A stretch of DNA of 64,000 nt from Giardia intestinalis (taxonomy: Eukaryota). The DNA is taken from the NCBI GenBank assembly GCA_000002435.2, contig CM018793.1. One strand, written 5' to 3'. Of this stretch, positions 16,401 to 34,700 are shown one piece after another. Both the position numbers and the translations under genes were made by a program. A model generated the notes under the pieces. It had not been told where the DNA came from, made no database searches, and saw nothing but the letters and a program-made list of their open reading frames with translations. Position 1 is the stretch's first letter. The number at the start of each line of letters is the position of its first letter.

Positions 16401-19164
16401 CCCCATCATTTCTAAGAACTTGAGGTCTCAGATGAGCACAGACACGGTCACTGCCGTCATCCAGTTTTCCTTGGTTCAGCTTCTTACGGACGACCTCCTC
16501 CCGGTCACCAAGGGAGTCTTCGCTAATTCCTTCAGAGAGAATTTGCTTTTGTACCTGAACTACACAACCCTCTACACAACCCAGAAGAGGCTTGCTGACG
16601 TCATATCTCGCGGGTACGGCACGTTCTTCAGCAACGTCCATGCACACAAGCAGTATGAGAAGGCCTGGAGCTCCCTCGTCAAGAACGTGAGTATAAAGCT
16701 TGACGACTTTGTGAAGGTCCGCGAAGCTATGATTAGCCACAACCACAGGGACTACGTAGAGAACATCTGCAAAGTGCGTACATCCAAGACTTTCATGGGC
16801 GATTGTGAGCATATCTTCTACAAAGCGCTCTGCTTGATGATCGACGACAGAAATCTGAAAGTGGTTGACCAGCTGTCCGACGAGGCTAGGAAATACTTGC
16901 ATCCGTTCGACCCCGACCAGCCCCAGGCACAGCGCGCCTTCGACACAGAAGGATTCAATAGGCTATTTGGGTGGATGATCCTCCTGTGTGAGTGCATCAT
17001 CAGCTATAGCGTTCTCGAGGAGGACGTCCTGGACTCCCCTGACCTTGGCTTCCTTTGTACAAAGCTGGACGACATAGAGAAGATCTTGGGTGCAGCCGGG
17101 CTGCTTTGCAAGGAAAAGGCTTGCACTTTGAACATCGGGGCGTTCATGACTTCTCTCAGGAGCATCTCTACAGGCAGTGGCCTCGCGGTTGCGCACCGGT
17201 CCCTCCTGATCATGCTGTCTACCTCGGTTGTGGTGACTGCCCACCTGGCGCCTGTCCCAGCCGAAAGGTCCAACGTCGATCTTAAGCCTCTGCAGCCCAG
17301 CTTCGTCAAATATGTGAAGGAGCACATCAGGGTGTACATGAGACACGCTTGCCCTGCCCCGGTTCCAATGAAGATGGCGCGGACGGGCATGGCGGCCAGA
17401 GCCTGTGCAGTAGATTCAGCCCAGCCTATGATGCTCTGCGCTGCATCGAATCGTGTTGTCCCAGAACGAGAGACGAAGCGCAAGAAGCTCGTTCGTGGCG
17501 GACGAGGAAATCAGCGTGTCTTTAAGCATGTGGACTATCTGGTTTCGATCATGGCTCGCTTTTATCGTGCCGCCAGCATGAAGCTAGCGATCACTGCGGG
17601 TGTTCTGCTCATTTCCAGCAACACAAATGCCTTTGTCTCCCCGCTGATCTCGATTTTACAGGCATCCGTTTTGAATGAGTCGGATGTCACCTCCGTGATC
17701 GAGTCGTTGGAGGCCATCACGGCCAAGTCCTTCTCCGTGGCATCTATGTCTATGATCGTCAAGATCATCACGCTCCCCGTTCTCCTGCAGCACCCGCGGG
17801 CTCCGGAGTTCTTGTTCAAGAAGGTCGTCTTCTCCCACTTCGACGTCGACCTTCTGCTTATCCGGTGCTGCATCATGCAGTTTAATACCGACCGCGCCAT
17901 GGAGGTCATCGAGCACTACATAGATAGGATCTCCAAGGGCTACCATAATGCGTGTGCAAATCCTGGCAAAGATGATGGAATTGTGGAGTCGCTCAAGATT
18001 GGAGCAACGGACAATATCACAGAGATCCCGCAGGATGATGACCTCGTTGCGTTGCCGAAGAACGTCGAGACCGCCCTGCGCTATATGGCCATTATTCCTA
18101 CCATGCTGAACCCGGAGATCCGTCCCCGTGGCTTCAGCGGGGACATCCTTCCCAAGAGCGACCAGGAGAAGTATCCCCTCATCGTCACCAAGGAGTCGAA
18201 GCGTGACGCCTTCATTGAGCCCGAGCGGATCCTCCGCCTCGTTCAGCTCACTGAGTTCTTGATAGATCTGCCCAATCCATTTAAGACGGGCCAAGTCGCC
18301 GAAATCAAGATGGCGTGGTTCGTCAACGCTGTTACACACGGCTACTTTAAGAAGTCTGTCATGGACACGGCGTTCACGTTTCTGGACAATTGCAACGGTA
18401 AGAGCCTGAAGTACCTGATACCAGGAGCATCCGAGGCGGAGCTCCGCTACCTCCATGAGAACATATCGGCGATCTCTGAAGCGAGTGTCCTCTGCGTCGC
18501 AAGCCTTGTTAGGGCTGGCGAGAAAGAAAAGGAGGACTTCGCCGCCGACAGGTTCATCAACAACATGAAGTTCATCGTCAGCACGGCCACCTCAGAACCG
18601 GATTACCGCGTAGACTCGTGCATCTTCACCTACTTCGATCTTGCTCGGGAACTGGTTCAGCGCCAGCAGGATGCCCACGGGTATTGCTGCGACGCGTGCG
18701 GCGGCGATCGCGTGCCGCATACAGAGTGCACGCTCTACAAGGACATGTGCTTTATGGTCCGACTGATTGAGTGGGCTGCTGAATACAGGACCTCGTTGCC
18801 GGACTTTGTTAAGTTCCGGACTCTCTACAAGAGTCTTCCCATAGACGAGATTGACGCGATGGGCTCGTTCGCCCTCGCGATCGTCAAGAACCACGAGGCC
18901 CCGGGTGAGTCTTCCTGCCTTAATGCCGTAAGCGCTGAATTGGCCAAGTTCGCGACCGCGGCCATCGCCATGGGCGTAAACATTCGTGTGGATAGGTCGT
19001 ACGTGAGTGTCTACACGCCTGTCGTCTATTCCGATGCACCTCTATTCACTCGCGGGATCTTTGCCAAAACCTTCAACCTGCATGACGCTATGAGTGACAT
19101 CTTAGCTCAAATGACTCTTGAGGAGAGGAGCAAGCTGTTTGCATACCTCTGTTACTGTTTGTAG
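13450..19164 (+). CDS. Large hypothetical protein (1904 aa).
   Basis: An uninterrupted 5.7 kb ORF with an ATG preceded by the A/T-rich TTTGTTTGACAATCATAA. An AGTGAAT polyA signal overlaps its TAG stop. No catalytic motif recognised. Confidence 0.7.
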   Translation: MSGTRLRTAPSYTPEDLASVIAGTASDAVIKAVLNTAVAKRELDVLERLRAEGPFSIQRCAERRLKVPAIAKLIRNSGAAPPPSLPSFDSFTGNFNPSIFKRAVKSFYRQTRQLPCEALYSVYFIQGSFAVFPRCFEAGFQAFMLNKLSLALDDYRAKFTLDETQTAESSDALVRLRNICAYYEKLYSLEGIRIYCSAPSQGVPLSREQRKACSRQEFANFKDPLAVRQCKYPHELILEKLPTKAFLTILSGSSYPSIPFVKQAASMNPVKTLLLLGVLSEPNGTEAPRVNFSIFDMRLRDDLVVYAANDRGFKLAYSYHNLTHWWINTYLIELLDTGLMKNLVNSGYFDLETVFVLTFMKHRDPTEIGPSLDLLTSYFAKVSQGLIPFFSGDMIEVDRTLRGGEKADPHHVLDKMVSSTAKLLLIFLEYMVCWTLGIGRKQLLSEQDLAALKPEEVYTCVSTSTILSAFMAKTKSLASAQSAFTLYILAHQVAVLHKAQGMDCPKIISNLSLQQYIEKSHLLTNKDAHIRSSVLVSLCRHCEAFASMARITASCKQLHKVFLDEAHETATYIRSIVDKFLKDKEALSNASNYLNSRFDSDEAVYNLFYVARLHDVLFRLCPEKASTEFFTRALRVYLRFSGDGSISISDSYSVLCKISTRWQEKLQGTMDPSYKYTPTHYPSGCLVSVEYPHHVDQLTYDTLSSEIRSALSCEDLSLLSPVDMSRYIAPRIEPSAFYVGPGYMYRRHHPVVAVPLLSASSADSVLLSVPLRVAPRDPTKKAATPSLSEKTEKILQGLSYLLFRDRFAGLKKSLQHLVLHKDVLAPAVNGGAPVAERLFQYVQSLHSYVTRLLGTLARVPIYDKSMLICHNKDLTEEQALSLATRASAIVLNYSNRNLKDLQSVLEKYISVFFETTLSIKSVSEHIVKPISLLIPSNDMKVSLQRKHNQLLRAQDPYFASPPTNVQIRFDFKGTEEYYKTLMSLPIISKNLRSQMSTDTVTAVIQFSLVQLLTDDLLPVTKGVFANSFRENLLLYLNYTTLYTTQKRLADVISRGYGTFFSNVHAHKQYEKAWSSLVKNVSIKLDDFVKVREAMISHNHRDYVENICKVRTSKTFMGDCEHIFYKALCLMIDDRNLKVVDQLSDEARKYLHPFDPDQPQAQRAFDTEGFNRLFGWMILLCECIISYSVLEEDVLDSPDLGFLCTKLDDIEKILGAAGLLCKEKACTLNIGAFMTSLRSISTGSGLAVAHRSLLIMLSTSVVVTAHLAPVPAERSNVDLKPLQPSFVKYVKEHIRVYMRHACPAPVPMKMARTGMAARACAVDSAQPMMLCAASNRVVPERETKRKKLVRGGRGNQRVFKHVDYLVSIMARFYRAASMKLAITAGVLLISSNTNAFVSPLISILQASVLNESDVTSVIESLEAITAKSFSVASMSMIVKIITLPVLLQHPRAPEFLFKKVVFSHFDVDLLLIRCCIMQFNTDRAMEVIEHYIDRISKGYHNACANPGKDDGIVESLKIGATDNITEIPQDDDLVALPKNVETALRYMAIIPTMLNPEIRPRGFSGDILPKSDQEKYPLIVTKESKRDAFIEPERILRLVQLTEFLIDLPNPFKTGQVAEIKMAWFVNAVTHGYFKKSVMDTAFTFLDNCNGKSLKYLIPGASEAELRYLHENISAISEASVLCVASLVRAGEKEKEDFAADRFINNMKFIVSTATSEPDYRVDSCIFTYFDLARELVQRQQDAHGYCCDACGGDRVPHTECTLYKDMCFMVRLIEWAAEYRTSLPDFVKFRTLYKSLPIDEIDAMGSFALAIVKNHEAPGESSCLNAVSAELAKFATAAIAMGVNIRVDRSYVSVYTPVVYSDAPLFTRGIFAKTFNLHDAMSDILAQMTLEERSKLFAYLCYCL

Positions 19165-21501: not shown

Positions 21502-21987
21502 CGAAATTTTTAAAATGGCACCCCAATGAGGTCATCGAGGCACAACGGCTTCACTGGCTGTCATCGCTCTATGTGGGGACGTGTCCCGCCACAGCTGCCA
21601 AAACTCTAGCTCTCCGTGCCAACCAGCTTTTGAGGTAAAGAGTGACTTGACAGGAGCTAAGAACTGGGACAAAAGATGGTCTACGTTGGTCAATAACTAA
21701 TCCGTATAAGAATATAATCAAGGTAGGCAGAGTGTTGAGCCTCCAAGAAAGCTGTCGGAATGGAGCACTACTGTAGATCTAATGACGCGTGTTCCTATAC
21801 CCGGCGCACGACGCCTGGTGGCAACAGTTGACCGCGTCTAACTGTGTTGCAAAATTTATAAGGAAAAGATGTTGATACATATTCAGTTTAAGTTGGTACG
21901 CTGTTGTGGCTGTAGTCCCATGCAGTTATTAATTAGATGGCTGAGATAATCATAATTGACCCAAAACCTTTTAACTGAAATTCCCAT

Positions 21988-22007
21988 TCCAAATAATTAA
22001 ACTGGCC
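21988..22007 (+). promoter_or_regulatory. AT-rich initiator immediately upstream of the HCMP ATG (CCAAATAATTAAACTGGCC-ATG).
   Basis: The AT-rich element abuts the start codon, as in known Giardia promoters. Confidence 0.4.
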
Positions 22008-25000
22008 ATGCTTTTTGCGGCGTTGGCGGTCCTGTTTAGCTCTGCGTCCTCTCCGGGATGCATAGATCCTACACAGAACCCAGACGGCGAGTACGAGTGC
22101 CAGCACGGAGGCGTCTGCACGAGGTTCGAGACGCTTCTCAGCTCCGGCTTTATCTGCGACTGTCCTCGCGGGTCCTTCGGCCGCGCATGTAACTTCTGCG
22201 ACCGGTCATTCATGCTCATCAATGATCGGTGTGTCAGCCCCGCTTGCGTCCTTGATGGTGTGAGCGTTTGCGGGGGCAGCGGCGAGTGCCTCTACACCGA
22301 GGACACAGACTCATGGTCGTGTTCGTGCAGAGATGGATTCGTTAACATCGCAGGGACGTGCGTCTCCTCCTCATGCATTAATCCAGAGAGTCCGGATCTC
22401 ATTTGCAGCGGCAACGGCAGCTGTAGGTCTCTTCCAGGTGGGGAAACAGGCGATGACTATCTCTGCGACTGTAACGATCTCCACTTGGGCGACCATTGTG
22501 AGGCATGTAATCGCAGAACGTCTAAGCCCGTGACTACAAACGGGGTGACAGAGTGTGTTTCCCTGGAATGCTTTACTGAAGATGAGGAGCTACCCTGCGG
22601 CGGTCACGGACACTGTGGCAGCTACCCTGTCGATGGGAAACTCTCCTATACTTGCATGTGCGGGTTTGGATACTCTCTCGTGAACAAGACATGTGTAGCA
22701 TCATCGTGTATTTTTGAATACAGTAACGGACATCATGTCTGCGGCTACGACGACTCCTTCAAGACGGCGTGCGTAGAAAGTGCCCAAGGTGAGTGGTCCT
22801 GTAGATGCCCGTCCGACACTACATTCATGGACGGCTATGGCTGTGTTTCTAGCCAGTGCATCGAGAATAGTGGCGAGCCTCCATGCGGTGGCGTTGGTGG
22901 ATGTTATGTATTCCAGATTAGCGGTGAGACGAAGACGTACAAGTGTCAATGCCCGCATTACACTGTTGGAAACTTTTGCAAGACTTGTTCTCCTAACGAG
23001 GCAACGAACATAGACGGTGTTTGCGTTCCTAATGATTGTATTTATGGCAACACATCGTGTAATGACCACGGGGTGTGTCATAGTCTTTTAGTTCATAGCT
23101 TCTGCGAATGTGAGTCGGAATTTGACACTGTTGATGAGATGAAGCACTACTGCGGGATACCGGAGTGCCATGACCCCAACACAAAGATGCTTTGCTCCGG
23201 GGCTGGTGCGTGTAACGAGCAAACGCGGGTCTGCGTGTGCATCAACGGTTTTCAGTATCAATCATATGGCGGCTGTGTTCCTGATAAACTAATTAACGAG
23301 AATGGTGTTTGCAATGGGCGCGGAACGGCCTCCCTGAAGGACCCGTGGGACCTTCCTGCCAACGAAAAGCTTAATGCCACAAACCCCGAGCATTGGATCT
23401 GCGTGTGTGGTACTCTATACACTGGCGAAACTTGTGACCAATGCAACCCATCAACATCCTTCACGCCAACAGCTTCCCCACCAGAATCACAACCTACGGG
23501 TGCTCCTCCTCAACTACCAACTTGCACGCCTCGTGATTGTTATAATGATGGGTATGAGTTGAAGGATCCTGATCCTCCTGTCGATCCTAATCAGCCGTCT
23601 GATCCTACTTATATCGATCAGCCTACTAAGCTATGCACGAATCCTTTACAGGAGAATAACAGTCCCTTGGGTACGTGTGAGAGCTACAAGATAGAGGACG
23701 AAGACATGTTCATATGCACCTCGAACGATCCGAATCAGTACCAGCAGGCCTATAATTCTTCCTCCATCTATCCCGTCGCCTGTACGACACCGGGACAGCA
23801 TTACGTTCGCCAAAATTTCATGTGCGGGCTTCTACAGGGCAAAACAGCTCCTCTTGAGATCAGGATGGTTAGCTGTAGCACTACCGAAACCAACGGTTAC
23901 AACTGTACGTGCAATGGAGAGTACAACTGGGTTAGCAGGACGATCAATGGCGTGATACACTACAGCTGTATGCACGACGAGTGTCTTAACGATGGGGCTA
24001 CTTCCGGGTCTTCAGACATTAACGACTATTGCTCCGGGCTGGGCGATTGCATACTGGATCTTACTGGAACAACTCACACTTGCGCCTGCAGCGCCAACGC
24101 CGTGTTCTACAAGAATAAGTGCATTCCAAGAGCGTGTGTTTCTGGGTGGAAAGATGAGCAGACGCCAATCATATGCGGCGGCCGTGGAACCTGCACACAC
24201 TGGGGAGACGGCGACTGGGGCTGCAAGTGCATGGATGTCGATCACTATACTTACGTGAGCGGGGGCTGCTATCCGAATTCTTGTGTCTATCTCTGGCAAA
24301 ATCCTACCGATGGCGCCTCATACATCCAACTCTGCGGTGGTGATAGCGTGGTTGCAGGGGGCACGTGCATCGTTGACGAGGCTGATCCTTCGAAGTCCTA
24401 TTGTGAGTGCAATGCCGACTTCGTGAGATATGGGCAGACGTGTGTGCATAAGAAGTGCACATCTGTGGATTATCACAACGACTTTCAGGTAACCCCCGAC
24501 TCCATCTGTTCTGGAAACGGCTACTGTCTGTTCAACTCCCGTACCAATATGTCCACCTGCTTCTGCACGAAGGGGACTGCCTACGGTCCATTTTGCTCCG
24601 TCGAACCATGCATTACGAATATTGAGTATGAGTTTGGAGATACTTGGGGTGAGATAACTCTGAATTGCGGAAGGCCTGGGGCCGGCGTTTGTAACATCAC
24701 TGGGGAGTCCACCGGCGAATGCTCATGCAATCCCGATTATGAGCTTTTGCCACCAACTTCTGAGCATCCAGAACTGGCCAAAATTTGCGTCAATACAGGG
24801 TGCATCGACAATGGAGTATACTGTGGCGGAGACCTGGCCGCAGTTTGTGGTATATCCAGAGCCGTGGCTACGTGCCTATGCAGCCAGGCATTCGAGGCCG
24901 TGAACAACACATGTGTGCCGAAGATGTGCTATGCGCCGAATCCAGACGGGATGATGGCCGTCTGTGGCGGCGTGGGAACGTGCGAAAAGGAATCAGGCTC

Positions 25001-28000
25001 TAATGTGTACTCTTGCAAGTGCCCCACGAGCGGCTACACAGCTGCTCAGATGAAATATAACGGTAACACAGTCTGGACTTGCGCCCCGCAGAGCTGCGTC
25101 AATGGCACAGACAGTAGCGCCACAGTGTGTGGAGGAACTACTGGGGGGTCTTGCGTAGGCTCCGGCGGGCAGTATCGCTGTTCATGTAGTGACGGATTCT
25201 TCCTTATCACCCCCACCCAGTGCGTCAGCAACAATTGCCTCTCGCAGAATATGAATGGTCAGATTTCCGTTTGCAGCGGGGTAGGAACGTGTTCTGAGAG
25301 TACAATGGGCATGTTCACTGAGTACTACTGTACTGGCTGTACTACTGGTTTCAAAGCTATAGATGGAAAATGCGTCAGCGAGAGCTGCTACTTCCAAATC
25401 GATTCCCTGAGCAAGTACTACGTTTGTGGAAAGCTGGGCAACTTCGGCGAGTGCGTGGGGACGGGTTCGGGATTCACCTGCTCTTGCTCCTACGGCTTTT
25501 TCCTAGCCGAGAAATACTGCGTCCCTAATCAGTGCACAGATAACCGCAGACACCCGGCAGAGTGTGGGGGCCATGGCGAATGCAAGCTTAAGAGCCTGGC
25601 CGAGTTCACCTGCGTTTGTAATGCCAACTATGAAACTGTCGACACCGATGAGCTTGGACTTCACTATTGTGTCGCCCAAGCTTGCATGGTGAAGGATAAC
25701 GGAGTTGTTACATCCATATGTAATGGTCATGGCTTGTGCAGGAAAGATAGGTGTTCCTGTTATGAAGGATATGCAGACGATCCATCTGCATCAACTAATG
25801 ATCCAACAGGAAACTGTACGGTTTGTGCTACTGGTTATAAAGAGTATCCTGCTCCTAACACTCTCACCGCCATCGCAGCCAACGCAAACTGCGTCAAAAA
25901 TAACTGCGGCCGGTCGACTCAAGACGATGACTGCGGCGGGTCCACTGTTGCCAATAATCCCTCCTGTGTGTACTCGTCTAAGACTTCGACCTATGAGTGC
26001 TCTTGCAAGACAGGCCACTACTCTAACAATGGAATTTGTAAGGTCTCCAGCTGTACGGACGGCGACTCCACTGTAGAGTGCGGTGGCTCTCAATTTGGCA
26101 CGTGTGATAACACAAACAATATATGCACGTGCGTCTCTGGGATGGTTTTGGTCAAGCCGTACCTTTGTGTCTCCCCGCGCTGCATCTCCAACAGTGCAAC
26201 GAACGAGGTCTGCAATGGGCACGGAACCTGCGCAATAAATCCTCGCACGCAGATAGCCGCCTGTAGGTGTACTGACGACTACGTTACAGCCAGGGACGGT
26301 CTGTGCTACCTCAGCACTTGCTTCAACGATCCCGAGCATTCTCAGCCAGTGGTTTGTGACGGTGCTGACAACAGCTGCAATACAGGAGGTGAATGCTCTT
26401 GCACACCGCCGTTCGTTAAATTCGCTGGCCAGAACGGGTGCGTGCATAGCAATTGTATCCAGAACGGGGTCGTTTGTGGAGGTCGCGGCGTGTGCCGTGC
26501 AAACCTTCTTTACACGCAGTACTCGTGTTTCTGCAATGATGAGTACATCCTAGCGTCAGACGGAACATGCCAGCCTAGGTCCTGCTCCCGAGACGGGGTG
26601 ACCGTCTGCGACAACAACGGCACCTGCGAGGCGGATGCAAGTGGCTCGACATATAGCTGTAAGTGCAATGGTACAACTATACTCTACATGAATGGCTGCG
26701 TTCCACGCGCCTGTTTCCCGCAATACAATCCTCGAGCATCTCTTTGCGGAGGAAATGGTCTATGTGATATGTCATCTGGGATGTGCCAATGCAATAGCGA
26801 CGCGTCGCTTACGGACGAACTTCTCTGCCAGCCAACCGACTGCGTTAATCCTCAGTACTCGGCAACAGTGTGCACGAATAACGGAGTGTGCAATTCTGTC
26901 AGCAACGTTTGTTTGTGTGTCGAGGGAAGCTCTGGGAAGTACTGTGAGTCGTGTGCCTCCGGATATAAGAAGTACACTAGTAACGACGAGTACAACGGCA
27001 GGTGCGTCAAGGACTCCTGCGGAAGCAAGAATTGTGGGACCCCAGGAAAATGCATCTTCGACTCCGACATCATCGAATATCGCTGCCTATGCAATGACGG
27101 GTTCTACTACAGCACATCCGAGCAGGAGTGCCGCCGATGCCTCATGGATAACTGCGTTACCTGCAACGGGGAGTCTTCATGCGCCGTTTGCGAGGATGGC
27201 TATTATTCCAACGGAGGGCGCTGCAGGGAGTGCGACGATGATTGTCGGACCTGCTCAGGACCAGAGGAGAGCCATTGCTTGAGTTGCATGCCGGGGAAGG
27301 TCCATAGCACAGGGGTCGGTCCCGCAAATTGCATTGACGAGTGCAAGGAGAATGAGGACGGATGCGCGACGTGTGGCTCGGTGATTGCGGGAAGCAGGTA
27401 TTGCTCCGTCTGTCGTGGACAGACCAGCTTCCCTCTCGAGGGTACCTGCCATGCGAAGACCTCCCGGGCCGGCGACGCCTGCGAGAGCGTCGTGGCAGGC
27501 AGGTGCACCAGGTGCTTGGGAAACTACTTCCTTTACGAAGGCGGATGTTATAGTAGCAGTCGTCTTCCTGGGAGCCAAGTGTGTTCCGTGGTTCTCGGGG
27601 GCAACTGCCTGAAGTGTGCCGACGGGTACTATAAGGCCGGGAGCGACGTCGAGCACGCATGCGTGTCATGCGATGGTCTGATGGAAGGATGCACTAAGTG
27701 CATGGCAAGCGGTTGCACAGAGTGCAAGGCTGGGTACTATCCAGACACTTCCAATGGACGGTGCATGGAGTGCGCCAGCCCATGCAAGACGTGTAACGGC
27801 GCTGGCGGTCGGTGCACATCCTGCGCGAAAGGATATTTCGCTCAGTTCATGGCCGATGATCTGAACAACTACGGTGAGTGCCGGAATTGTAGCAACACCA
27901 CCGCAGACAACGGGCTGGTTGGTGTGAGGAATTGCAAGGAGTGCGTCGTTTTTGCAGTCGGATCCCTTTCGCAACCGGAGATGGTCCACTGTAGCGAATT

Positions 28001-28238
28001 CTCCTCCGTCAAGTCGTCGGCCGGCGTCATAGCGGGCTCTGTCATAGCAGTGCTTCTTGTGCTAGGCGGAGTCATCGGGTTCTGTGTCTGGTGGTTCCTG
28101 GTCCGCGGCAAGAAGGGTCAGGCAGCTCAGAAAGGACGACGTGGAAAGTCCTATTCTGGCCGAAAGTATGTGCGGACTGTTTCCGATCCTGACAGCACGT
28201 CGTTGCTATCCACAGACATGACTAACTCGCTTCTTTAG
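22008..28238 (+). CDS. High-cysteine membrane protein (HCMP), VSP-like/EGF-like, 2076 aa.
   Basis: About 10% Cys arranged in dozens of tandem CXXC/CXC modules (for example CV..C....CGG.G.C). It has a GGCY motif (YEGGCYSSSRLPG), a VSP-like CXXC-rich C-terminal ectodomain and a single C-terminal transmembrane helix ending in CVWWFLVRGKKG. A 60-aa basic cytoplasmic tail follows. The N-terminal MLFAALAVLFSSASS looks like a signal peptide. Confidence 0.85.
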   Translation: MLFAALAVLFSSASSPGCIDPTQNPDGEYECQHGGVCTRFETLLSSGFICDCPRGSFGRACNFCDRSFMLINDRCVSPACVLDGVSVCGGSGECLYTEDTDSWSCSCRDGFVNIAGTCVSSSCINPESPDLICSGNGSCRSLPGGETGDDYLCDCNDLHLGDHCEACNRRTSKPVTTNGVTECVSLECFTEDEELPCGGHGHCGSYPVDGKLSYTCMCGFGYSLVNKTCVASSCIFEYSNGHHVCGYDDSFKTACVESAQGEWSCRCPSDTTFMDGYGCVSSQCIENSGEPPCGGVGGCYVFQISGETKTYKCQCPHYTVGNFCKTCSPNEATNIDGVCVPNDCIYGNTSCNDHGVCHSLLVHSFCECESEFDTVDEMKHYCGIPECHDPNTKMLCSGAGACNEQTRVCVCINGFQYQSYGGCVPDKLINENGVCNGRGTASLKDPWDLPANEKLNATNPEHWICVCGTLYTGETCDQCNPSTSFTPTASPPESQPTGAPPQLPTCTPRDCYNDGYELKDPDPPVDPNQPSDPTYIDQPTKLCTNPLQENNSPLGTCESYKIEDEDMFICTSNDPNQYQQAYNSSSIYPVACTTPGQHYVRQNFMCGLLQGKTAPLEIRMVSCSTTETNGYNCTCNGEYNWVSRTINGVIHYSCMHDECLNDGATSGSSDINDYCSGLGDCILDLTGTTHTCACSANAVFYKNKCIPRACVSGWKDEQTPIICGGRGTCTHWGDGDWGCKCMDVDHYTYVSGGCYPNSCVYLWQNPTDGASYIQLCGGDSVVAGGTCIVDEADPSKSYCECNADFVRYGQTCVHKKCTSVDYHNDFQVTPDSICSGNGYCLFNSRTNMSTCFCTKGTAYGPFCSVEPCITNIEYEFGDTWGEITLNCGRPGAGVCNITGESTGECSCNPDYELLPPTSEHPELAKICVNTGCIDNGVYCGGDLAAVCGISRAVATCLCSQAFEAVNNTCVPKMCYAPNPDGMMAVCGGVGTCEKESGSNVYSCKCPTSGYTAAQMKYNGNTVWTCAPQSCVNGTDSSATVCGGTTGGSCVGSGGQYRCSCSDGFFLITPTQCVSNNCLSQNMNGQISVCSGVGTCSESTMGMFTEYYCTGCTTGFKAIDGKCVSESCYFQIDSLSKYYVCGKLGNFGECVGTGSGFTCSCSYGFFLAEKYCVPNQCTDNRRHPAECGGHGECKLKSLAEFTCVCNANYETVDTDELGLHYCVAQACMVKDNGVVTSICNGHGLCRKDRCSCYEGYADDPSASTNDPTGNCTVCATGYKEYPAPNTLTAIAANANCVKNNCGRSTQDDDCGGSTVANNPSCVYSSKTSTYECSCKTGHYSNNGICKVSSCTDGDSTVECGGSQFGTCDNTNNICTCVSGMVLVKPYLCVSPRCISNSATNEVCNGHGTCAINPRTQIAACRCTDDYVTARDGLCYLSTCFNDPEHSQPVVCDGADNSCNTGGECSCTPPFVKFAGQNGCVHSNCIQNGVVCGGRGVCRANLLYTQYSCFCNDEYILASDGTCQPRSCSRDGVTVCDNNGTCEADASGSTYSCKCNGTTILYMNGCVPRACFPQYNPRASLCGGNGLCDMSSGMCQCNSDASLTDELLCQPTDCVNPQYSATVCTNNGVCNSVSNVCLCVEGSSGKYCESCASGYKKYTSNDEYNGRCVKDSCGSKNCGTPGKCIFDSDIIEYRCLCNDGFYYSTSEQECRRCLMDNCVTCNGESSCAVCEDGYYSNGGRCRECDDDCRTCSGPEESHCLSCMPGKVHSTGVGPANCIDECKENEDGCATCGSVIAGSRYCSVCRGQTSFPLEGTCHAKTSRAGDACESVVAGRCTRCLGNYFLYEGGCYSSSRLPGSQVCSVVLGGNCLKCADGYYKAGSDVEHACVSCDGLMEGCTKCMASGCTECKAGYYPDTSNGRCMECASPCKTCNGAGGRCTSCAKGYFAQFMADDLNNYGECRNCSNTTADNGLVGVRNCKECVVFAVGSLSQPEMVHCSEFSSVKSSAGVIAGSVIAVLLVLGGVIGFCVWWFLVRGKKGQAAQKGRRGKSYSGRKYVRTVSDPDSTSLLSTDMTNSLL

Positions 28239-28245
28239 AGTGAAT
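28239..28245 (+). terminator. PolyA signal AGTGAAT directly after the HCMP TAG.
   Basis: TAG-AGTGAAT. It matches the AGTRAAY consensus. Confidence 0.45.
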
Positions 28246-28278
28246 TCCTATCTACCGCTGTTTACTATCCGAACAAAA

Positions 28279-28710
28279 ATGGTCAACGACGAGGGGACGG
28301 CTCTCCTCTATGCTAAAGAGGCATCCGAGTCGACGAGAAGAACGCAAATCTATAGTATGGAGCCGTACGCGTCTCCAGGCGAGATACCGTTCCAGGAGCA
28401 GGCGTCTCCATGGCCAAACACCGGTTCTCTTATCCACCTGAGCCCAAGTGTTGAGCCTGTGAAGAAGAATGAGTATGCCCTTCAGCCTGGCATGCCGCTC
28501 TGCACGATACTGTTTGTCATGGGCTGTCTACTCCCTCCAGTGCTCTGGCTAGTCGGCCCTATATTAAGTGCTAGCCCTACTGTGCACCCGGATGTGCGCA
28601 CCAGGTTCTTCTACGCGACAGTGGCTTCCCTGGCATTCACAAGCATGCTTGCACTGGCAGCCCTAGTGACAAGTTTCATTCTCTACAACCAGACGGTCTC
28701 ATCTGAGTAA
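28279..28710 (+). CDS. Small hypothetical two-transmembrane protein. The track ORF starts at a GTG at 28240, and the first ATG is at about 28279.
   Basis: It has two hydrophobic helices (LCTILFVMGCLLPPVLWLVG and VASLAFTSMLALAALVTSFIL). ACAAAAATG is an A-rich initiator. Its 3' end overlaps by 12 nt the stop of the convergent giant gene. Confidence 0.35.
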   Translation: MVNDEGTALLYAKEASESTRRTQIYSMEPYASPGEIPFQEQASPWPNTGSLIHLSPSVEPVKKNEYALQPGMPLCTILFVMGCLLPPVLWLVGPILSASPTVHPDVRTRFFYATVASLAFTSMLALAALVTSFILYNQTVSSE

Positions 28711-31700
28711 AGCGGCATTTTTGTTGAACCATTCAATGAAATCTGCCCATTCATGACACTCAGTGTAGTAGTAACTTCTACGGTAGCGAATGACGACTCC
28801 ATCGACAACAATATAAAGGCGGAGCTCTCGGACAGGGCCAGTTGGGAGGAGCTTGAAGAGGACGGTATAGGAATGGTTGCTCAGTTTCTCAATAAAGACG
28901 CGGTAGCCAGGTTTTGATGATTGAAGAAGCGTCTGTTTGGCTTGCTCCTTTGCAGGCTCGCCCTCCTCGTCTTTTCCGCTCACAAAGTAGCTGCTTCGCG
29001 CGATGGAGCGCAGAAAGTTATTAATCGGTCGGACAAAGTCTCGTATGATGCTCTCCAAAGAGTCAAAAACACGCTCGTTGGGAAAGGAAAGGGCCTCGTC
29101 GGGTAAGACCAGCTGCCTGATCACCAGTTTCTTGCTCACTGCCAGAGAGTTGCGTTGCCCGTTTGGAAGGAGAGGTTTGTAGCGCTCATCCTCCTGAATA
29201 GTGAAGTACATTAGCGACCTTGTGGTCTGCTGAGCCTCGGGGACACACATCACTAAGCGCAGCTTGTTGGGCCCGTTTCTGTGCGGTACAAAAATGAATG
29301 GTCGCTCGTCCACCTCTCGTTGAGCGTTCAGATACTCATATATCTTGCTCCCAAAGATATTCCTGAAATAAGGGTCGCTGATCTCTCTGCGAACGATGCT
29401 TGGGCGGAGGTCCTGCTGCTGTCGGTGAAGATGGTCTGCGTATCGCTGGGAGCCAATAAAAAGAAGGACAGGAATGTAAGTGAAGTAGTTCCAGTGGGCC
29501 TCCCTGCAGAGAAAGACAAGAGGCATGTGTGTCTCCACCGTTAGCCTGTCTAAGAACACTTGGTCAGCCCTTTCTAGTGGGTCAGAAATGTCACTGTACT
29601 CTGCCAAAATAGATGCCAGCTCAGTCCGGAGCTGCGGATGTCGGTCCTCGATAGTGCCGATATTGTTCAAGAAGTAACTCAGATAGTTAGCGAATAGCTC
29701 ATCAATCCTAAACGCGTTACTGAAAAAGCCTCTGTCGCCAAATAGCTCATTCAGCTGCGTCTGCAGGGCCTTGTTCAAAAGGTCCCGATACAAGCTCCCA
29801 ATAATGGTCCCGGACGACCCGGATAGAAGAGTGTACAGAGCAAGCCTAGTGAACGTTCTACACTGGGTTTGCCTCGTTTCGCCAGGATCAGATATGCCTA
29901 CGTCTGACAGTGCTCTGAGGAGATGCATTAGTGCCTCGCTGATGGAGACGGGTTTCTCCAAAAATGAGGCGAATTTCTTTGGCATCTTGTCGATTCTATT
30001 AAAGTACGTATTGGTTATAGAGGTGCTTAGCTTGCTGTACCTATAGCATTGTTCTGTACTCAAAATTGCATCCAGAAGACGAAGCTGTAGCTTATTCATG
30101 TGAAGCTGAGGAAGACAGTCCACTACCTTGACCTGCCTGTCAAACGCTGCGTCTTCGTCACGGGAGAGCGTGACCACAAGGGAAAGGACATTTTGATGAA
30201 GATCTATGCCAAAAAGGTAAGCATCAAACTCTGTTTCGATGGCACCCTCAGTTTCCAGTGTGGAAAGATCAGACAGCAAGGAAACCTGGCCTGTAAGACC
30301 TTCGTAACGGCTCACGCGCACCCGCTTCATCACAGAGTTGGTAATCCACTGAGCTGCAGGACAGAACACCTTGAATGCCCTATACCGCGAAAAAACTGCA
30401 GGGTTGGATTCCCCAGATAAAGATATGAAGATTATCTCCTTGCTGTACTCAATGAACGGCCGTCCCGCATCGATAAGCTCCATTGTGGGATAACGGAGCT
30501 GGTGATAGCGCGTTGCTTGGGTAATGACATCCAGTACTTGGGAGAGAACGGGCCGAATATTCTCGGCAGAGCACAGAAGATCCCGCAAAAGAGGATCTAT
30601 TGTCATAAGTTGGGAGCATAGGAAAATGAACCCCTCTGTGAAGTCCTTCTTCCCGCTACCAAGCTCATCACCGGAACTGCTTCTTGCAGTTCGATTGAGC
30701 CGCCCAACCAAGTACTTTACCAGCTCCTGCTGAAGAACGGATGCCGACCCTCCTGCGACAGAGGAGTGCTCCACGTAGTCGTCGCCAATGCTAGACACAT
30801 ACGTCTCTTTAAATCCCTTGTAAAAAGCCAGCAATAGGTTTTCAACAGGCTCTTCGTCACCAAGTTTGTCTAGTTCTCGGTCCATTCCTTTGTAGAGAGT
30901 ACAGATCTTTTTATAGTCATCGAGCTCCTCAAGATACAGTTGCAGCGCTTTGTTGTCCCCACTCTGCTTTATAGATAAATACCTGTAAAGCTCTTTGGCA
31001 AATAGAAGCCTAGACGGTTGAGGATTTAGATCCTTTAGTGGCACGCCCTCTGCTATGCTTGGCTGTATTCTTCCTAGCCAGTTTGGAGCCTCTTCCAAGG
31101 CAAGCTGATTGATCGAGCTGAAAAATTGGCGATGATTTTCTTCAGCCTTATTATGCAACTCGTTACGAAGACCGTCCAGCGCAGATCTTAAATCAGTGCC
31201 TCTGTTAAATAAAGGGTCAGCAATCAAACTACTACATGATGCCTTAAACAGCAGGCTTGTTAATATTAGTGCAAGGTTCCTAGCGGCACAATAGTCTGTC
31301 TGATACAAACCCATCTTGAGGGTCAAGTTGTGTAGAAAATCATCAAGCTTTTTGGAACCTTTAAACAAGCAAAACTTGAGGAAAAGACTAGCAACTAGTT
31401 GGGTCTCTTTACCAGATAGAGACACCATGTCATGATAGGTGAGCCCCATAAATTCCTTCAGCTCCAAACTGCTCAGGTAGTTAGTAAGGTTTTCAGGCCA
31501 GAAGATGGCATCTGAGTACAGAGTCTGCGGCTGGGTCCTTTCCGTCAAGCTTTCATTTGTGTAGCCATCCTCCTCATCCTGCACACTATTAGAAAATGCA
31601 TTGATGGAGACACTATGATAAAGCTGGGTGTAGTACAACTCCAACGAATTTTGTATCAGCATAGTACGATCGATAGCGTGTCGGTACCTGTTAAATGAAA

Positions 31701-34700
31701 AATCTTTAATTCGTGGCCCAATCCAACGTAGAAGCAGTGTAGTTACAATATTAGGATTCTCAGCAGTGTAGGCAGCAGAGTATGCTCCACCCGGGTAGCT
31801 CAATATCACGTCATGTGTGATCGAACACCCGTGGGCCAACGCGACGTTAACCAACTCGATGTATTTGCAGACTCTTTTCATGACATTCGTGGGGGTGTAC
31901 TTTGGATTGGTAAAGAAATCTATTAAGCTCTTCTTCATGTAAATCCGTGTCAGCTTAGTGAAGTAGACATTTGCTATAAGATACCGAGTAGCGTCTGCAG
32001 AAGGCGGCCTTTCAAATGGATCCTTAACCAATCCTATATCCTCAAGGTGTACAGAACTGGTCAACCCTGAAGGCAGGCTACTCTCATGTTTATCCACATA
32101 CTTCTTGTAAAGAGCGAGTTCTGGATTTATGAGCTGTATATTGCAGATATCCGCGACCGTGCAACTCGACCTTGCCAGCCCGACTAAGCCTTTGGCAACG
32201 TGCTCGATATTTTGAACGGCCTCCTGATATGTAAACGGGGTATCGTCCTCTATGCTTTTGAAACGATTAAACGCGTCATCTTGAAACTCCTTAGTGGAAA
32301 CGCAATATGTAATGACAAAATCCTCTAGAATTAGCTCTGCAATTATGTTAGCTAGAAACGCCTTATTTTTGAAAACCATCCCTAGTCTATGCTCATCGTT
32401 AGCTTTCTTCCCTGCAGAGAGTTCTGTGTCCATTTCACGTACACCTCTCCGCTTGCTAGAAGATTCGACGGTTATCCGCTCTCCGTGAATATTACACGAC
32501 GTAGCTGCCAGAATAGCCAGATATGACTGGCGAATCATCTTGAGGAGATCCCCATTAAAGTAATCCTCCAATGATTGTATGGTCTTCATGAGGGAGTCTT
32601 TGGTGGAGTCGTCGCTAGGAAGATCGGCTTTATGTAGGTCTGTTAATTTGTCAATATAAGCCTGCAACTCTTGCGCTTTTTCAAGCCCGCTGGCATACTT
32701 CTCGATATCACTGCTTAAAGCTAGAAAATTATCGTGGCGACGAGATATGAAAACTCTCTTGTACACTCTGAGAAGCTTCCGTGCAGAAAGCCACGGGAGA
32801 AAGGCTATCAGATGGGTATAGTGAGGAGATATAAACGGCAAGTTGATGTCTGGACGGCGTCTGTAGATGGCTAGTGAGAGTGCATAGTGGGCTATGAATG
32901 AAAAGCAGAGCTTAAACCTCGCATGGAAATCAGATGAGACGTTGATCGTGCGGACCTTATCACTGCTCTCAAGATTGGTTAAGGGAGCAAAGTCGGTCAT
33001 AAAATTAATCAGGGGGGCTGCTACCAAGTCTTCTATCGACCCACCCCCATTTGCAAGGCATGCATAAGCAGCGAGCGGGTCCAACAAATAGCGTCCTGCC
33101 CAGATGCCAAGGACAACGCTCTCGCCGTGGTAATGATCCTCTATTGCCCGGTAGTCTACCTTGGGGTGCACATACAATCCAGGGAGATACTGACCCCTAA
33201 AAAGCTCTGGTGGAAGCGCATCTTTTTGCAAACGTGCCCCGGTCTCATCCAACTGCAAACCATCAAGCGCAAGTCTAGTGGCAACACTATACATTTTAAC
33301 GTTACCAGTGGTGAGAGAAAGCTTCTGTCTACAGAGGCGAATCCGATCATGTGCCTGCGAGACGGGATAGAGATTCCAATGGAAGGGGCTGCTACTTATG
33401 ATGAGATTTGTAGACGTCTTAAGCATGCTGCTAATAACATTCAGCATTATGTCTCTTTGCCTTTGAAAGCTAAGTCGAGCCCCTTCTTCTCTGTGCGTAC
33501 CTCTAAGTATGAAACTGGGATCATGCATCATACGGAACTTCTTACTATATAACGACATTGGGACATCAGCAGGGATGCGTAGGAGATTGATTCTTGTTAT
33601 GTTGTAAGCTAATGGCTGTCTCTTAAAGAAGAGATCATCTATGAAGAGCGGATTTCCACTGATCAAAGCCTTCTCTAAACATGGGAACTCCACGTTTCTC
33701 CACTGATCTACTTGAAAATTGGATCCGGAGGCATCGTTCGCCTCTTTTCTTAAAAGACTTGCCTCAATGTATTTTGGTAGTGGAAGGTTGAGATACTGAA
33801 GTGTGGCCTCCAAGTTTCGATACGTTGAGTCACTAGTAAACCCGCGGGATAAGACCCCAACCGCACAAACGCCGGAAGAAATAATGTAGTCGTGAAGCCT
33901 AGCTTCGTCCAGGATGCGTTGAAACTCTGATTGGCGAGAAGAGTAGACCTGCAATGCAGGCTCCAGAACCTTGAAGAGCTTTTCACGGGGACAGCTGACA
34001 AGGGAGGCGAAGATGGGATCCAAGGATCTGACAAGCGCTCTGTACTCGTTCCGGACCTGCTCGCACGCTTTTTCAGTGCGCAGAGGGTTGGGGAGCTGCT
34101 CATGATACTGTGAAAGAATCAAGTGGGATACGTACCGGCCGTAGCGGTCTAACACGACAAAGGTGGTGCAGTCGTGTCCAACTCCTGCTACGGATAAACC
34201 CAGGTGCTTGTCGTCTCTAGATATCTTTGACTTGTTCACAGAAACAATCCTATGGGGTATGCATATCATAATTCGGAAGTGTTTGCACGCTCCTACAAAA
34301 CTCGGAGATTTGTTGCGTGTAGAGTCGATGTCAAACGGAGTTTTATTTTCATTATAAAGCGGAACCAGGTTTGGCTTTTCACGTCGCTCCTTATCTGTTT
34401 GGCTCATGGTTGGCTTTTGCAAGCGGAGAGGATTATATTCTGGGGTGGAAAAGCGGATGCTCAACGAGTGAAGCGCCTGCGTTTCTAGAGCCTCTATTGC
34501 ATGACTATGTAGGACCTTTATGAGATTCTCCTGGGCTCGGAAAAGAATCTTTGACACAATATCGTCTAAAAATGTATTACAGTTATCGTACCAGCATTGG
34601 AAATTGTCGGCGACAATCTCGTGCAGATCACTGATCTGATGACCACTCCGTTCTTCCAGTCTACGTTGTGTCAATTCCAGAAGGCTATCAAATGATGAGA

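What the first reader, a model, noticed from the sequence alone, without database searches (positions are those of the whole stretch)
22008..28238. A 2076-aa cysteine-module surface protein with a long cytoplasmic tail
This is among the largest Cys-rich ectodomain proteins one would expect in this genome. Dozens of tandem 40 to 50-aa modules, each with 4 to 6 Cys, make it prone to recombination and to expansion or contraction. Unlike VSPs, whose tail is 5 aa, its anchor ...CVWWFLVRGKKGQAAQKGRRGKSYSGRKYVRTVSDPDS... carries an RGK motif reminiscent of CRGKA followed by a basic/Ser-rich tail of about 60 aa that could signal or be phosphorylated. The internal repeat structure is not explained by a simple annotation.
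Basis: partly seen in the sequence, partly recalled or inferred. Interest (0 to 1): 0.55.

Follow-up and report, generated by a model that had tools for sequence, protein, structure and literature searches.

The report
Known Giardia high-cysteine membrane protein 16318
The ORF is real, but it is the already catalogued Giardia lamblia WB gene GL50803_16318, a non-variant surface-type protein that is stable between Giardia lineages rather than a recombining repeat protein.

Summary
The ORF at 22008-28238 (+) is real: 2076 aa, 243 Cys (11.7%), one C-terminal transmembrane helix. Its transmembrane and tail sequences and its mass (220.5 kDa) match those printed for Giardia lamblia WB ORF 16318 ("HCMp Group 1") in Davids et al. 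2006, so it is already known and annotated.

Anatomy, N- to C-terminus:
- signal peptide
- about 30 divergent EGF-like modules with 6 or 8 Cys each, mostly joined by 4-residue linkers
- a 235-aa atypical, Pro-rich segment interrupting the array
- a roughly 300-aa CxxC domain of VSP (variant-specific surface protein) / furin-repeat type
- a VSP-type transmembrane helix
- a 44-aa tail (not about 60 aa)

The claim that the gene is prone to recombination, expansion or contraction is not supported. There are no DNA repeats in the gene. The orthologues from assemblage E (84% identity) and a B-like lineage (72%) are collinear, with all 243 Cys and all 28 strict modules conserved and no indel longer than 5 aa. 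dN/dS is about 0.11 and synteny with P15 is complete. These same orthologues rule out mis-assembly.

RGK is homologous to the VSP CRGKA tail, but the palmitoylated Cys is replaced by Val and the poly(A) signal is the conventional one.

One small lead remains. The distal tail (DSTSLL...SLL-COOH) is more conserved than the proximal tail, and a similar pattern recurs in other long-tailed HCMPs. It could be a sorting signal.

The parts
21990..22007 (+). AT-rich initiator region directly upstream of the ATG (caaataattaaactggcc)
   Evidence: Read from the sequence. The last ~40 nt before the ATG are almost invariant between the window and the P15 orthologous locus. Promoter function is inferred from general knowledge of Giardia promoters.
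22008..28238 (+). Complete ORF of HCMP GL50803_16318 (2076 aa plus stop)
   Evidence: The helix and tail are letter-identical to ORF 16318 in Table 1 of Davids et al. 2006. The computed mass of 220.5 kDa equals the published value.
22008..22055 (+). Putative signal peptide (MLFAALAVLFSSASSP, about aa 1-16)
   Evidence: Short hydrophobic N-terminus, conserved in both orthologues. The cleavage site was not predicted with a dedicated tool.
22059..23276 (+). EGF-like module block 1 (aa 18-423; 8 modules, three of them 8-Cys with a CxxC extension)
   Evidence: Pattern segmentation and module alignment. All Cys are invariant in the orthologues.
23277..23981 (+). Atypical segment (aa 424-658): one stretched module, a Pro/Thr/Asn-rich linker (aa ~480-545), and a conserved Cys-containing stretch that does not fit the strict EGF pattern
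   Evidence: The Pro-rich linker is absent from the paralogue 15317, while the distal Cys stretch is shared with it. No PDB sequence match.
23982..27131 (+). EGF-like module block 2 (aa 659-1708; 21 modules, mostly joined by 4-residue linkers)
   Evidence: The AlphaFold2 model of aa 1344-1662 (pLDDT 69) matches tandem-EGF structures by Foldseek: NEL, Pfs25/Pvs25/Pfs28, DLL1, Notch1, NELL2, integrin beta.
27132..28016 (+). Membrane-proximal CxxC domain of VSP / furin-repeat type (aa ~1709-2003)
   Evidence: Pfam VSP PF03302, E = 4e-56, aa 1700-2035. 34% identity, E = 1e-53, collinear with the C-terminal half of the VSP at 52893-55247. Model pLDDT 75; best PDB matches are the R-spondin Fu1-Fu2 furin-like repeats.
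28017..28103 (+). VSP-type transmembrane helix (aa 2004-2032, SAGVIAGSVIAVLLVLGGVIGFCVWWFLV)
   Evidence: Highest hydropathy in the protein. Predicted as a helix in the model. Aligns with the VSP helices ...GGLVGFLCWWF.
28104..28160 (+). Proximal tail (aa 2033-2051): RGKK followed by a basic, Gly/Ser-rich stretch
   Evidence: Variable in sequence but always basic in the orthologues: 8-13 of 19 residues identical. RGK aligns with the RGK of VSP CRGKA, but the Cys position is Val.
28161..28235 (+). Distal tail (aa 2052-2076): RKYVRTVSDPDSTSLLSTDMTNSLL, containing D2062-STS-LL ([DE]xxxL[LI]) and a C-terminal S-L-L
   Evidence: 21-22 of 25 residues are identical among the three orthologues. 10 of 19 are identical to the paralogue 15317 tail, against about 30% identity overall.
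28239..28245 (+). Conventional Giardia poly(A) signal AGTGAAT (AGTRAAY) immediately after the TAG stop
   Evidence: The VSP in the same window instead carries the extended signal ACTTAGATAGTAAAT. Davids et al. state that all HCMps but one use the conventional signal.

Best explanation
[quoted passage not shown] It is an invariant, single-copy, positionally conserved type I membrane protein, not a variant antigen.

Shown here: its ectodomain is a chimera of two disulfide-rich building blocks. The first is a long array of about 30 ancient, mutually divergent EGF-like modules, interrupted once by a Pro-rich linker and an atypical Cys segment. The second is a membrane-proximal CxxC domain that is homologous, together with the transmembrane helix, to the C-terminal half of a VSP. 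The 5-residue VSP tail CRGKA is replaced by V-RGK plus 41 further residues.

Inferred: the EGF array forms a long, protease-resistant, disulfide-stabilised stalk or ligand-binding surface that projects beyond the VSP coat. The basic proximal tail satisfies the positive-inside rule. The conserved distal tail (acidic dileucine-type DSTSLL plus a hydrophobic C-terminus SLL) is a sorting signal. It would be read by adaptor or coat proteins and would control traffic between the ER, the peripheral vacuoles and the plasma membrane.

From published data: the mRNA rises about 4-fold in mid to late encystation.
For: Identity:
- The helix (23 aa) and the tail (44 aa) are letter-identical to ORF 16318 in Table 1 of Davids et al. 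2006.
- The computed mass of 220.5 kDa equals the published value.

Invariance:
- Gene order is the same as in the P15 locus: 384 aa, 1904 aa, 777 aa (-), the HCMP, 143 aa, 3045 aa (-), 2751 aa.
- All 243 Cys are conserved in three lineages, indels are 5 aa or shorter, and dN/dS is 0.08-0.11. The five neighbouring genes give 0.07-0.16.
- All three orthologues have 28 strict modules, whereas both members of the paralogue 15317 lineage have 18.
- The gene contains no DNA repeats.

Architecture:
- Pfam VSP, E = 4e-56, over aa 1700-2035.
- BLASTP against the in-window VSP gives 34% identity, E = 1e-53, through the helix to RGK.
- Fold searches return tandem-EGF proteins for the EGF fragment and furin-like repeats for the C-terminal fragment.
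- The EGF pattern occurs 28 times against 1.1 in shuffles.

Tail:
- The distal 25 aa are 84-88% identical among orthologues, against 42-68% for the proximal 19 aa.
- DSTSLL matches [DE]xxxL[LI].
- In 16 long-tailed HCMP lineages, 12 end in a hydrophobic residue (3.5 expected) and 8 end in two (0.7 expected).

Expression and protein evidence:
- FPKM is 11 in trophozoites, 37 at 7 h, 45 at 22 h and 18 in cysts. No value is listed for host-cell contact or for HDAC-inhibitor treatment.
- SAGE shows up-regulation at 4-12 h of encystation.
- The protein was detected by mass spectrometry.
Against: - No localisation, ligand or phenotype has been published for this gene in the papers I could search. 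Every functional step is therefore inference.
- Dileucine signals have not been shown to work in Giardia. Only tyrosine-based YxxPhi signals have.
- The paralogue 15317 has its acidic residue at -5/-6 rather than -4, so the canonical [DE]xxxL[LI] spacing is not conserved across the subfamily.
- The tail-motif statistics use related, hand-picked sequences.
- The structure models are of only moderate confidence (pLDDT 69 and 75), and the TM-scores are low because the arrays are flexible.
- Pfam EGF hits fall below the curated cut-offs: 19.8 against 21.5 bits.
Confidence: 0.85

Rival explanations
1. It is a VSP-like variable antigen. Its tandem modules would recombine, so that module number expands and contracts between isolates, contributing to antigenic diversity.
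For: It is Cys-rich and contains a genuine VSP-type domain and helix. The HCMP family as a whole is described as variable and is often found next to VSPs in non-syntenic islands. A real VSP lies 25 kb away in this window.
Against: There are no tandem or long direct DNA repeats. Modules share only 16% identity outside the Cys. Cys count, strict module count and length (2076, 2074 and 2068 aa) are the same in three assemblages, with no indel above 5 aa, and selection is purifying. Synteny is perfect. There is no CRGKA tail and no extended VSP poly(A) signal. The gene is transcribed in bulk populations at all stages, and no HDAC-inhibitor response is listed for it, unlike the VSP-like HCMPs.
Confidence: 0.03
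2. The 6.2-kb ORF is an assembly artefact that concatenates several shorter HCMP genes.
For: None beyond the general difficulty of assembling Cys-rich gene families. One assemblage B gene model (P0020) is visibly mis-built at this locus.
Against: Full-length, collinear orthologues exist in an independent genome assembly (P15, on a 191-kb contig) and on an independent metagenome scaffold. Both have the same start, stop and Cys positions. The gene has no internal repeats that could mislead an assembler. The published mass for ORF 16318 is the same.
Confidence: 0.01
3. It is a Notch-like signalling receptor. The EGF array would bind a ligand, regulated proteolysis would release the basic tail, and the tail would signal inside the cell, possibly in the nucleus.
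For: It has a long EGF-like array, a single helix and a conserved tail. Fold matches include Notch1 and DLL1 EGF repeats. The proximal tail is strongly basic, with 9 K/R in its first 22 residues. The idea is raised for HCMPs in general by Peirasmaki et al..
Against: Pfam finds no LNR/NRR, ankyrin, RAM or other signalling domain. The tail is only 44 aa. The basic part is the least conserved part of the tail. None of the modules has the calcium-binding EGF consensus. The membrane-proximal region is a VSP-type domain, not a Notch-type one.
Confidence: 0.04
4. It is mainly an encystation or cyst protein, like the Group 1 member HCNCp. It would be carried with cyst-wall material and would act in the cyst wall or on the excyzoite surface. 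This overlaps with the best explanation rather than excluding it.
For: mRNA rises about 4-fold at 7-22 h of encystation, and SAGE shows a rise at 4-12 h. It falls in the same MEME group as HCNCp. Four Myb2-like hexamers cluster 95-240 nt upstream of the ATG.
Against: Induction is modest next to HCNCp, which goes from 13 to 168 FPKM. None of the four Myb2-like hexamers is conserved in the P15 promoter, and the motif is not enriched window-wide (79 matches against 73 expected). The gene is also expressed in trophozoites.
Confidence: 0.12

Closest known systems
[quoted passage not shown] 2006, PLoS One 1:e44)
   Same: It is the same protein. The transmembrane helix, the 44-aa tail, the mass (220.5 kDa) and the Cys content (12%) are all identical.
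   Different: Nothing of substance differs. The published table lists CxxC = 30 and CxC = 25, whereas I count 25 and 30. The columns look swapped for that row.
Paralogue GL50803_15317 (HCMP Group 1, 1615 aa; P0003)
   Same: It has the same architecture: EGF-like array, atypical Cys segment, VSP-like CxxC domain, helix and long tail. It shares the distal tail motif ...STSLLSxD...S[LM][LI]-COOH and a similar encystation expression profile.
   Different: Overall identity is about 30%. It has 18 rather than 28 strict EGF modules and no Pro-rich linker. Its helix is of the VLVWFF type rather than FCVWWF. The acidic residue before LL sits at -5/-6.
Giardia variant-specific surface proteins (VSPs; Pfam PF03302), for example the VSP at window 52893-55247
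   Same: The last ~330 ectodomain residues plus the helix are homologous and collinear (34% identity, E = 1e-53). Both have CxxC repeats, a GGCY motif and RGK after the helix.
   Different: VSPs lack the 1700-aa EGF-like array and have almost no CxC motifs (1 against 30). The VSP tail is exactly CRGKA, with a palmitoylated Cys; here that Cys is Val and 41 residues follow. VSPs carry an extended poly(A) signal, which is absent here. This gene is syntenic and invariant rather than variable.
Metazoan and apicomplexan tandem-EGF surface proteins (Notch/Delta, tenascin, NELL, Plasmodium Pfs25/Pvs25)
   Same: They share the six-Cys C...C-x5-C...C-x-C...C module with short linkers and the predicted EGF fold.
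   Different: No sequence-level match to any PDB chain. No calcium-binding consensus. Pfam EGF scores are below the cut-off. No associated signalling domains.
Furin-like cysteine-rich repeats (R-spondin Fu1-Fu2; EGFR and insulin-receptor Cys-rich domains)
   Same: The predicted fold of the CxxC domain matches them (Foldseek probability 1.0, E = 1e-4 to 1e-3).
   Different: This is a local fold resemblance only (TM-score normalised to the target 0.4-0.5, 20-30% identity). There is no evidence of shared function.

Membership tests
HCMp/HCMP (criteria of Davids et al. 2006) | Type I topology: N-terminal signal peptide and a single C-terminal transmembrane helix | tested here: met
   There is one strong hydropathy peak at aa 2004-2032 and a hydrophobic N-terminus. 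The segment is a helix in the model. No dedicated signal-peptide predictor was available.
HCMp/HCMP (criteria of Davids et al. 2006) | At least 400 aa, at least 10% Cys, and at least 20 CxxC/CxC motifs | tested here: met
   2076 aa, 11.7% Cys, 25 CxxC and 30 CxC motifs. The criteria are quoted.
HCMp/HCMP (criteria of Davids et al. 2006) | Lacks the VSP tail CRGKA | tested here: met
   The tail is RGKKGQ...NSLL, 44 aa.
GL50803_16318 (identity with the published ORF) | Same helix, tail and mass as listed in Table 1 of Davids et al. 2006 | tested here: met
   23 of 23 helix residues and 44 of 44 tail residues are identical, and the mass is 220.5 kDa in both.
VSP (variant-specific surface protein) | Invariant 5-residue cytoplasmic tail CRGKA | tested here: not met
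   The sequence is V-RGK-K followed by 40 more residues. The in-window VSP ends in CRGKA.
VSP (variant-specific surface protein) | Extended poly(A) signal ACTYAGRTAGTRAAY | tested here: not met
   Only AGTGAAT follows the stop. The in-window VSP has ACTTAGATAGTAAAT.
VSP (variant-specific surface protein) | VSP-type CxxC ectodomain and conserved helix (Pfam PF03302) | tested here: met
   191 bits against a cut-off of 31.4, over aa 1700-2035 only. 34% identity to a VSP.
VSP (variant-specific surface protein) | Mutually exclusive expression and switching | not testable with these tools
   Bulk RNA-seq shows expression at all stages. Single-cell data would be needed.
EGF-like domain | Six Cys in the pattern C1..C2-x5-C3..C4-x-C5..C6, repeated in tandem | tested here: met
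   28 strict matches against 1.1 in shuffles, and about 30 modules by manual segmentation.
EGF-like domain | Passes the curated Pfam EGF model threshold | tested here: not met
   PF00008 scores 19.8 bits against a cut-off of 21.5. The laminin and teneurin EGF models are also below their cut-offs. Davids et al. reported E = 2e-29 with an older model and scoring.
EGF-like domain | EGF fold | tested here: inconclusive
   The model of aa 1344-1662 has pLDDT 69. All top PDB matches are tandem-EGF proteins, but with low TM-scores.
Calcium-binding EGF (cbEGF) | [DN]-x-[DN]-[EQ]-C1 and C3-x-[DN]-x4-[FY]-x-C4 consensus | tested here: not met
   Neither pattern matches anywhere in the protein.
Notch-type receptor | LNR/NRR module and an intracellular RAM/ankyrin domain | tested here: not met
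   No such Pfam hits. The tail is only 44 aa.
Adaptor-binding acidic dileucine signal [DE]xxxL[LI] | Motif present in the cytoplasmic tail and conserved | tested here: met
   D2062-S-T-S-L-L is invariant in the three orthologues. The spacing differs in the paralogue 15317.
Adaptor-binding acidic dileucine signal [DE]xxxL[LI] | Binds AP hemicomplexes and directs sorting | not testable with these tools
   Only YxxPhi signals have been shown to work in Giardia, according to the review read.

The most novel reading that the evidence does not exclude
Long-tailed, EGF-containing HCMPs of Giardia, with 16318 and 15317 as the clearest cases, share a previously unremarked bipartite cytoplasmic signal. 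It consists of an internal Ser/Thr-flanked di-hydrophobic motif (TSLLS, VSLIN, VSFMT, APLLS, TMLIS) about 10-17 residues from the end, plus a hydrophobic or di-hydrophobic C-terminus (SLL, SML, TFI, NFI, TII, VQL). This signal would direct adaptor- or COPII-dependent sorting, and so would set these invariant proteins apart from VSPs in trafficking. It would also explain the mixed surface and internal localisation reported for HCMPs.
Probability: 0.3. Interest if true: 0.4.

Novelty: already known. Interest (0 to 1): 0.15.

Why it matters
The practical value is mainly negative: this locus should not be followed up as a new or unstable repeat protein. Two points are modestly useful for Giardia biology.

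First, the gene is a clean example of the few positionally conserved HCMPs, whose function the P15 genome paper called unknown. It is under purifying selection with every cysteine fixed. That makes it a better candidate for an invariant diagnostic or vaccine antigen than VSPs.

Second, its conserved distal tail gives a directly testable hypothesis for how non-VSP Cys-rich proteins are sorted.

Tried and rejected
1. Tandem Repeats Finder and direct-repeat searches on the gene found no arrays. Only 22-27-nt chance-level matches turned up.
2. A sequence search of the whole protein, and of a profile of the atypical segment, against the PDB gave no hits.
3. I considered Myb2-dependent encystation control. 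Four CWACAG hexamers cluster upstream (21771-21915), but none is conserved in P15. The motif occurs 79 times in the window against 73 expected, so this is not usable evidence.
4. A database search with only the helix and tail returned a single 98-aa fragment of the same gene and no new tail relatives.
5. A search of the papers for GL50803_16318 by identifier gave no main-text hits. '16318' appears only in Davids 2006 and in one proteomics table.
6. Neither the calcium-binding EGF consensus nor a YxxPhi signal in the tail is present.
7. I considered and dropped a Notch-like reading and a mis-assembly reading (see the rival explanations).
8. The profile-free search of 1.84 billion representatives found 342 relatives at E <= 0.001. 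All of them look like Cys-rich repeat proteins. It added tails for comparison but no new architecture.

Full report
**Observation.** The window carries one uninterrupted ORF at 22008-28238 on the + strand, encoding 2076 aa. The product has 243 Cys (11.7%), 25 CxxC and 30 CxC motifs. It has a single strong internal hydrophobic segment at aa 2004-2032 and a short hydrophobic N-terminus. The tail after the helix is 44 aa (R2033-L2076), not about 60 aa.

**Modules.** The repeat structure is real at the protein level.
- A six-Cys EGF-type pattern, C-x(4-20)-C-x(3-10)-C-x(4-16)-C-x-C-x(6-25)-C, matches 28 times, against 1.1 +/- 1.0 (maximum 6) in 1000 shuffles.
- In 20 of 27 junctions, C6 and the next C1 are separated by exactly four residues.
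- Counting variants by hand gives about 30 modules of 37-72 aa. Five of them have 8 Cys because of a CxxC extension.
- The array is only quasi-periodic. The best Cys autocorrelation lag is 44, with z = 3.7.
- The modules are old and divergent. Mean pairwise identity is 30% overall and 16% outside the aligned Cys.
- At the DNA level nothing is repeated. Tandem Repeats Finder returns no arrays even at its lowest score threshold, and the longest direct repeat is 27 nt at 67-81% identity.

**Architecture.** Pfam gives a strong VSP (variant-specific surface protein; PF03302) match for aa 1700-2035, with E = 4e-56. The match runs to position 396 of the 397-position model, which means through the helix to R-G-K. 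The EGF models score just below their cut-offs.

A genuine VSP lies in the same window at 52893-55247 (-). It scores E = 3e-152 against the Pfam VSP model, ends in CRGKA and carries the extended poly(A) signal ACTTAGATAGTAAAT. Its C-terminal ~330 residues align collinearly with aa 1698-2035 of the finding, at 34% identity and E = 1e-53.

Two AlphaFold2 models were compared with the PDB.
- aa 1660-2076 (pLDDT 75) is all-beta hairpins followed by a helix at the transmembrane segment and a disordered tail. Its best PDB matches are the furin-like repeats of R-spondin.
- aa 1344-1662 (pLDDT 69) matches only tandem-EGF proteins: NEL, Pfs25/Pvs25/Pfs28, DLL1, Notch1, NELL2 and integrin beta.

TM-scores are low in both searches, as expected for flexible bead-like arrays, so the fold assignment is class-level only. 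None of the modules has the calcium-binding EGF consensus.

Between modules 8 and 10 lies a 235-aa segment (aa 424-658). It consists of one stretched module, a Pro/Thr/Asn-rich linker, and a Cys-containing stretch that does not fit the strict pattern. That last stretch is shared with the paralogue 15317; the Pro-rich linker is not. It has no PDB sequence relative.

[quoted passage not shown] Table 1 of Davids et al. 2006 (PMC1762436) lists WB ORF 16318 as follows:
- mass 220.5 kDa and 12% Cys
- helix GSVIAVLLVLGGVIGFCVWWFLV
- tail RGKKGQAAQKGRRGKSYSGRKYVRTVSDPDSTSLLSTDMTNSLL

These are letter for letter the helix and tail in the window, and the computed mass is also 220.5 kDa. The window is therefore Giardia lamblia WB (assemblage A) and the gene is GL50803_16318. 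The same paper already reports its VSP and EGF HMM scores and places it in MEME 'Group 1'. Later work renames the family CRMPs and notes that their tails range from 1 to 60 aa.

**Is it unstable or mis-assembled?** Two orthologues were recovered with their DNA. One is from P15 (assemblage E), on a 191-kb contig. The other is on an ENA metagenome scaffold. I infer that the ENA lineage is B-like, because its C-terminus is nearly identical to an assemblage B fragment (P0020).
- The three proteins are 2076, 2074 and 2068 aa long and align collinearly.
- All 243 Cys are conserved in all three, and no indel exceeds 5 aa.
- Each has 28 strict modules, whereas both members of the paralogue 15317 lineage have 18.
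- dN/dS is 0.08-0.11 overall and similar in every region of the ectodomain. This lies within the range of the five flanking genes, 0.07-0.16.
- Gene order around the locus is identical in WB and P15.

So the gene belongs to the small set of positionally conserved HCMPs mentioned in the P15 genome paper, whose function is described there as unknown. Changes in module number happened before the assemblages split and are not ongoing. The mis-assembly alternative is excluded.

**Regulatory signals and expression.** The stop codon is followed at once by the conventional poly(A) signal AGTGAAT, not the extended VSP signal. The ~40 nt before the ATG are AT-rich and nearly invariant in P15. Four Myb2-like hexamers cluster upstream, but none is conserved in P15 and the motif is not enriched in the window.

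Published data show the following.
- FPKM is 11 in trophozoites, 15 at 1.5 h, 37 at 7 h, 45 at 22 h and 18 in cysts. No value is listed for host-cell contact or for HDAC-inhibitor treatment (Table S8 of PMC7461913).
- SAGE shows a rise at 4-12 h of encystation.
- The protein was detected by mass spectrometry and was higher in a metronidazole-resistant line.

**Tail.** RGK is homologous to the RGK of CRGKA. The Cys that is palmitoylated in VSPs is Val here.

The proximal 19 residues are basic but poorly conserved, with 8-13 of 19 identical among orthologues. The distal 25 residues are well conserved, with 21-22 of 25 identical. The distal part contains D-S-T-S-L-L, which matches [DE]xxxL[LI], and it ends in S-L-L. 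The paralogue 15317 shares ...STSLLSxD...S-M-L: 10 of 19 residues are identical, against about 30% identity overall.

I extracted tails from the relatives found in the 1.84-billion-protein search. In 16 long-tailed lineages:
- 15 contain an adjacent hydrophobic pair, against 10.5 expected from shuffling (15 or more in 0.66% of the 5000 shuffles)
- 12 end in a hydrophobic residue, against 3.5 expected
- 8 end in two hydrophobic residues, against 0.7 expected

These sequences are related and were picked by hand, so this is a lead and not a result. The terms 'dileucine' and 'sorting' do not occur in the 2022 CRMP preprint. The 2018 review of Giardia membrane proteins reports only tyrosine-based signals as functional in Giardia.

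**Mechanism.**

*Shown:* this is a type I membrane protein. Its ectodomain joins about 30 EGF-like modules to a VSP-type membrane-proximal domain and helix. It is invariant and under purifying selection, and it is moderately induced in encystation.

*Inferred:* the EGF array forms a long, disulfide-stabilised, protease-resistant stalk or binding surface. The basic proximal tail fixes the topology. The conserved distal tail is a sorting signal read by adaptor or coat proteins.

Rivals are scored in the report sections: variant antigen, assembly artefact, Notch-like receptor, and dedicated cyst protein. Only the cyst-protein reading keeps appreciable weight, and it overlaps with the main reading.

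**Verdict.** It is wrong on instability and on the lack of annotation. The gene is already known, so interest is low. The only new element is the conserved bipartite tail motif, which is a testable but unproven lead.

Noticed in passing
window 52893-55247 (-): A genuine VSP gene. It scores E = 3e-152 against the Pfam VSP model, is 734 aa from its first ATG, ends in ...GFLCWWFMCRGKA, and is followed by the extended VSP poly(A) signal ACTTAGATAGTAAAT. It sits in a GC-rich island (GC 0.53-0.58 at 52-56 kb), about 25 kb from the HCMP.
   Followed up: partly
window 28279-28710 (+): A 143-aa ORF begins only 40 nt after the HCMP stop. It is conserved in P15 (88.8% aa identity, dN/dS 0.13), has a hydrophobic C-terminal half and gives no Pfam hit. 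Its 3' end overlaps tail-to-tail by 12 nt with the 3044-aa gene on the minus strand.
   Followed up: partly
P0020 (assemblage B gene model QR46_2222, 237 aa), corresponding to window ~28000-28710: This public gene model fuses the last ~60 codons of the HCMP orthologue, frameshifted just after ...CVWWF, to the downstream 143-aa ORF. It looks like an assembly or annotation artefact in that assemblage B assembly.
   Followed up: no
window 23523-23981 (aa ~506-658 of the HCMP): A conserved Cys-containing segment that does not fit the 6-Cys EGF pattern. It is shared with the paralogue 15317 (invariant residues include F..C, AYNSS, CG.L, SC.H..CLN). It may be a stretched EGF module or a distinct small domain.
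   Followed up: partly
window 28699-37833 (-) and 13450-19164 (+), 37901-46183 (+): Three very large neighbouring ORFs of 3044, 1904 and 2760 aa. They give no confident Pfam domain; the 3044-aa one has only a sub-threshold Spt6-type SH2 hit (PF14633, E = 1.4e-5). The first two are well conserved in P15 (91.5% and 89.5% identity).
   Followed up: no
window 21771-21915: A cluster of four Myb2-like hexamers (CWACAG or its complement) within 145 nt of the HCMP upstream region. None is conserved in the P15 orthologous promoter.
   Followed up: yes
Davids et al. 2006, Tables 1 and 3, row 16318: The published counts are CxxC = 30 and CxC = 25. The sequence gives CxxC = 25 and CxC = 30. The counts for 15317 agree with mine, so the two columns appear swapped for 16318 only.
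   Followed up: yes
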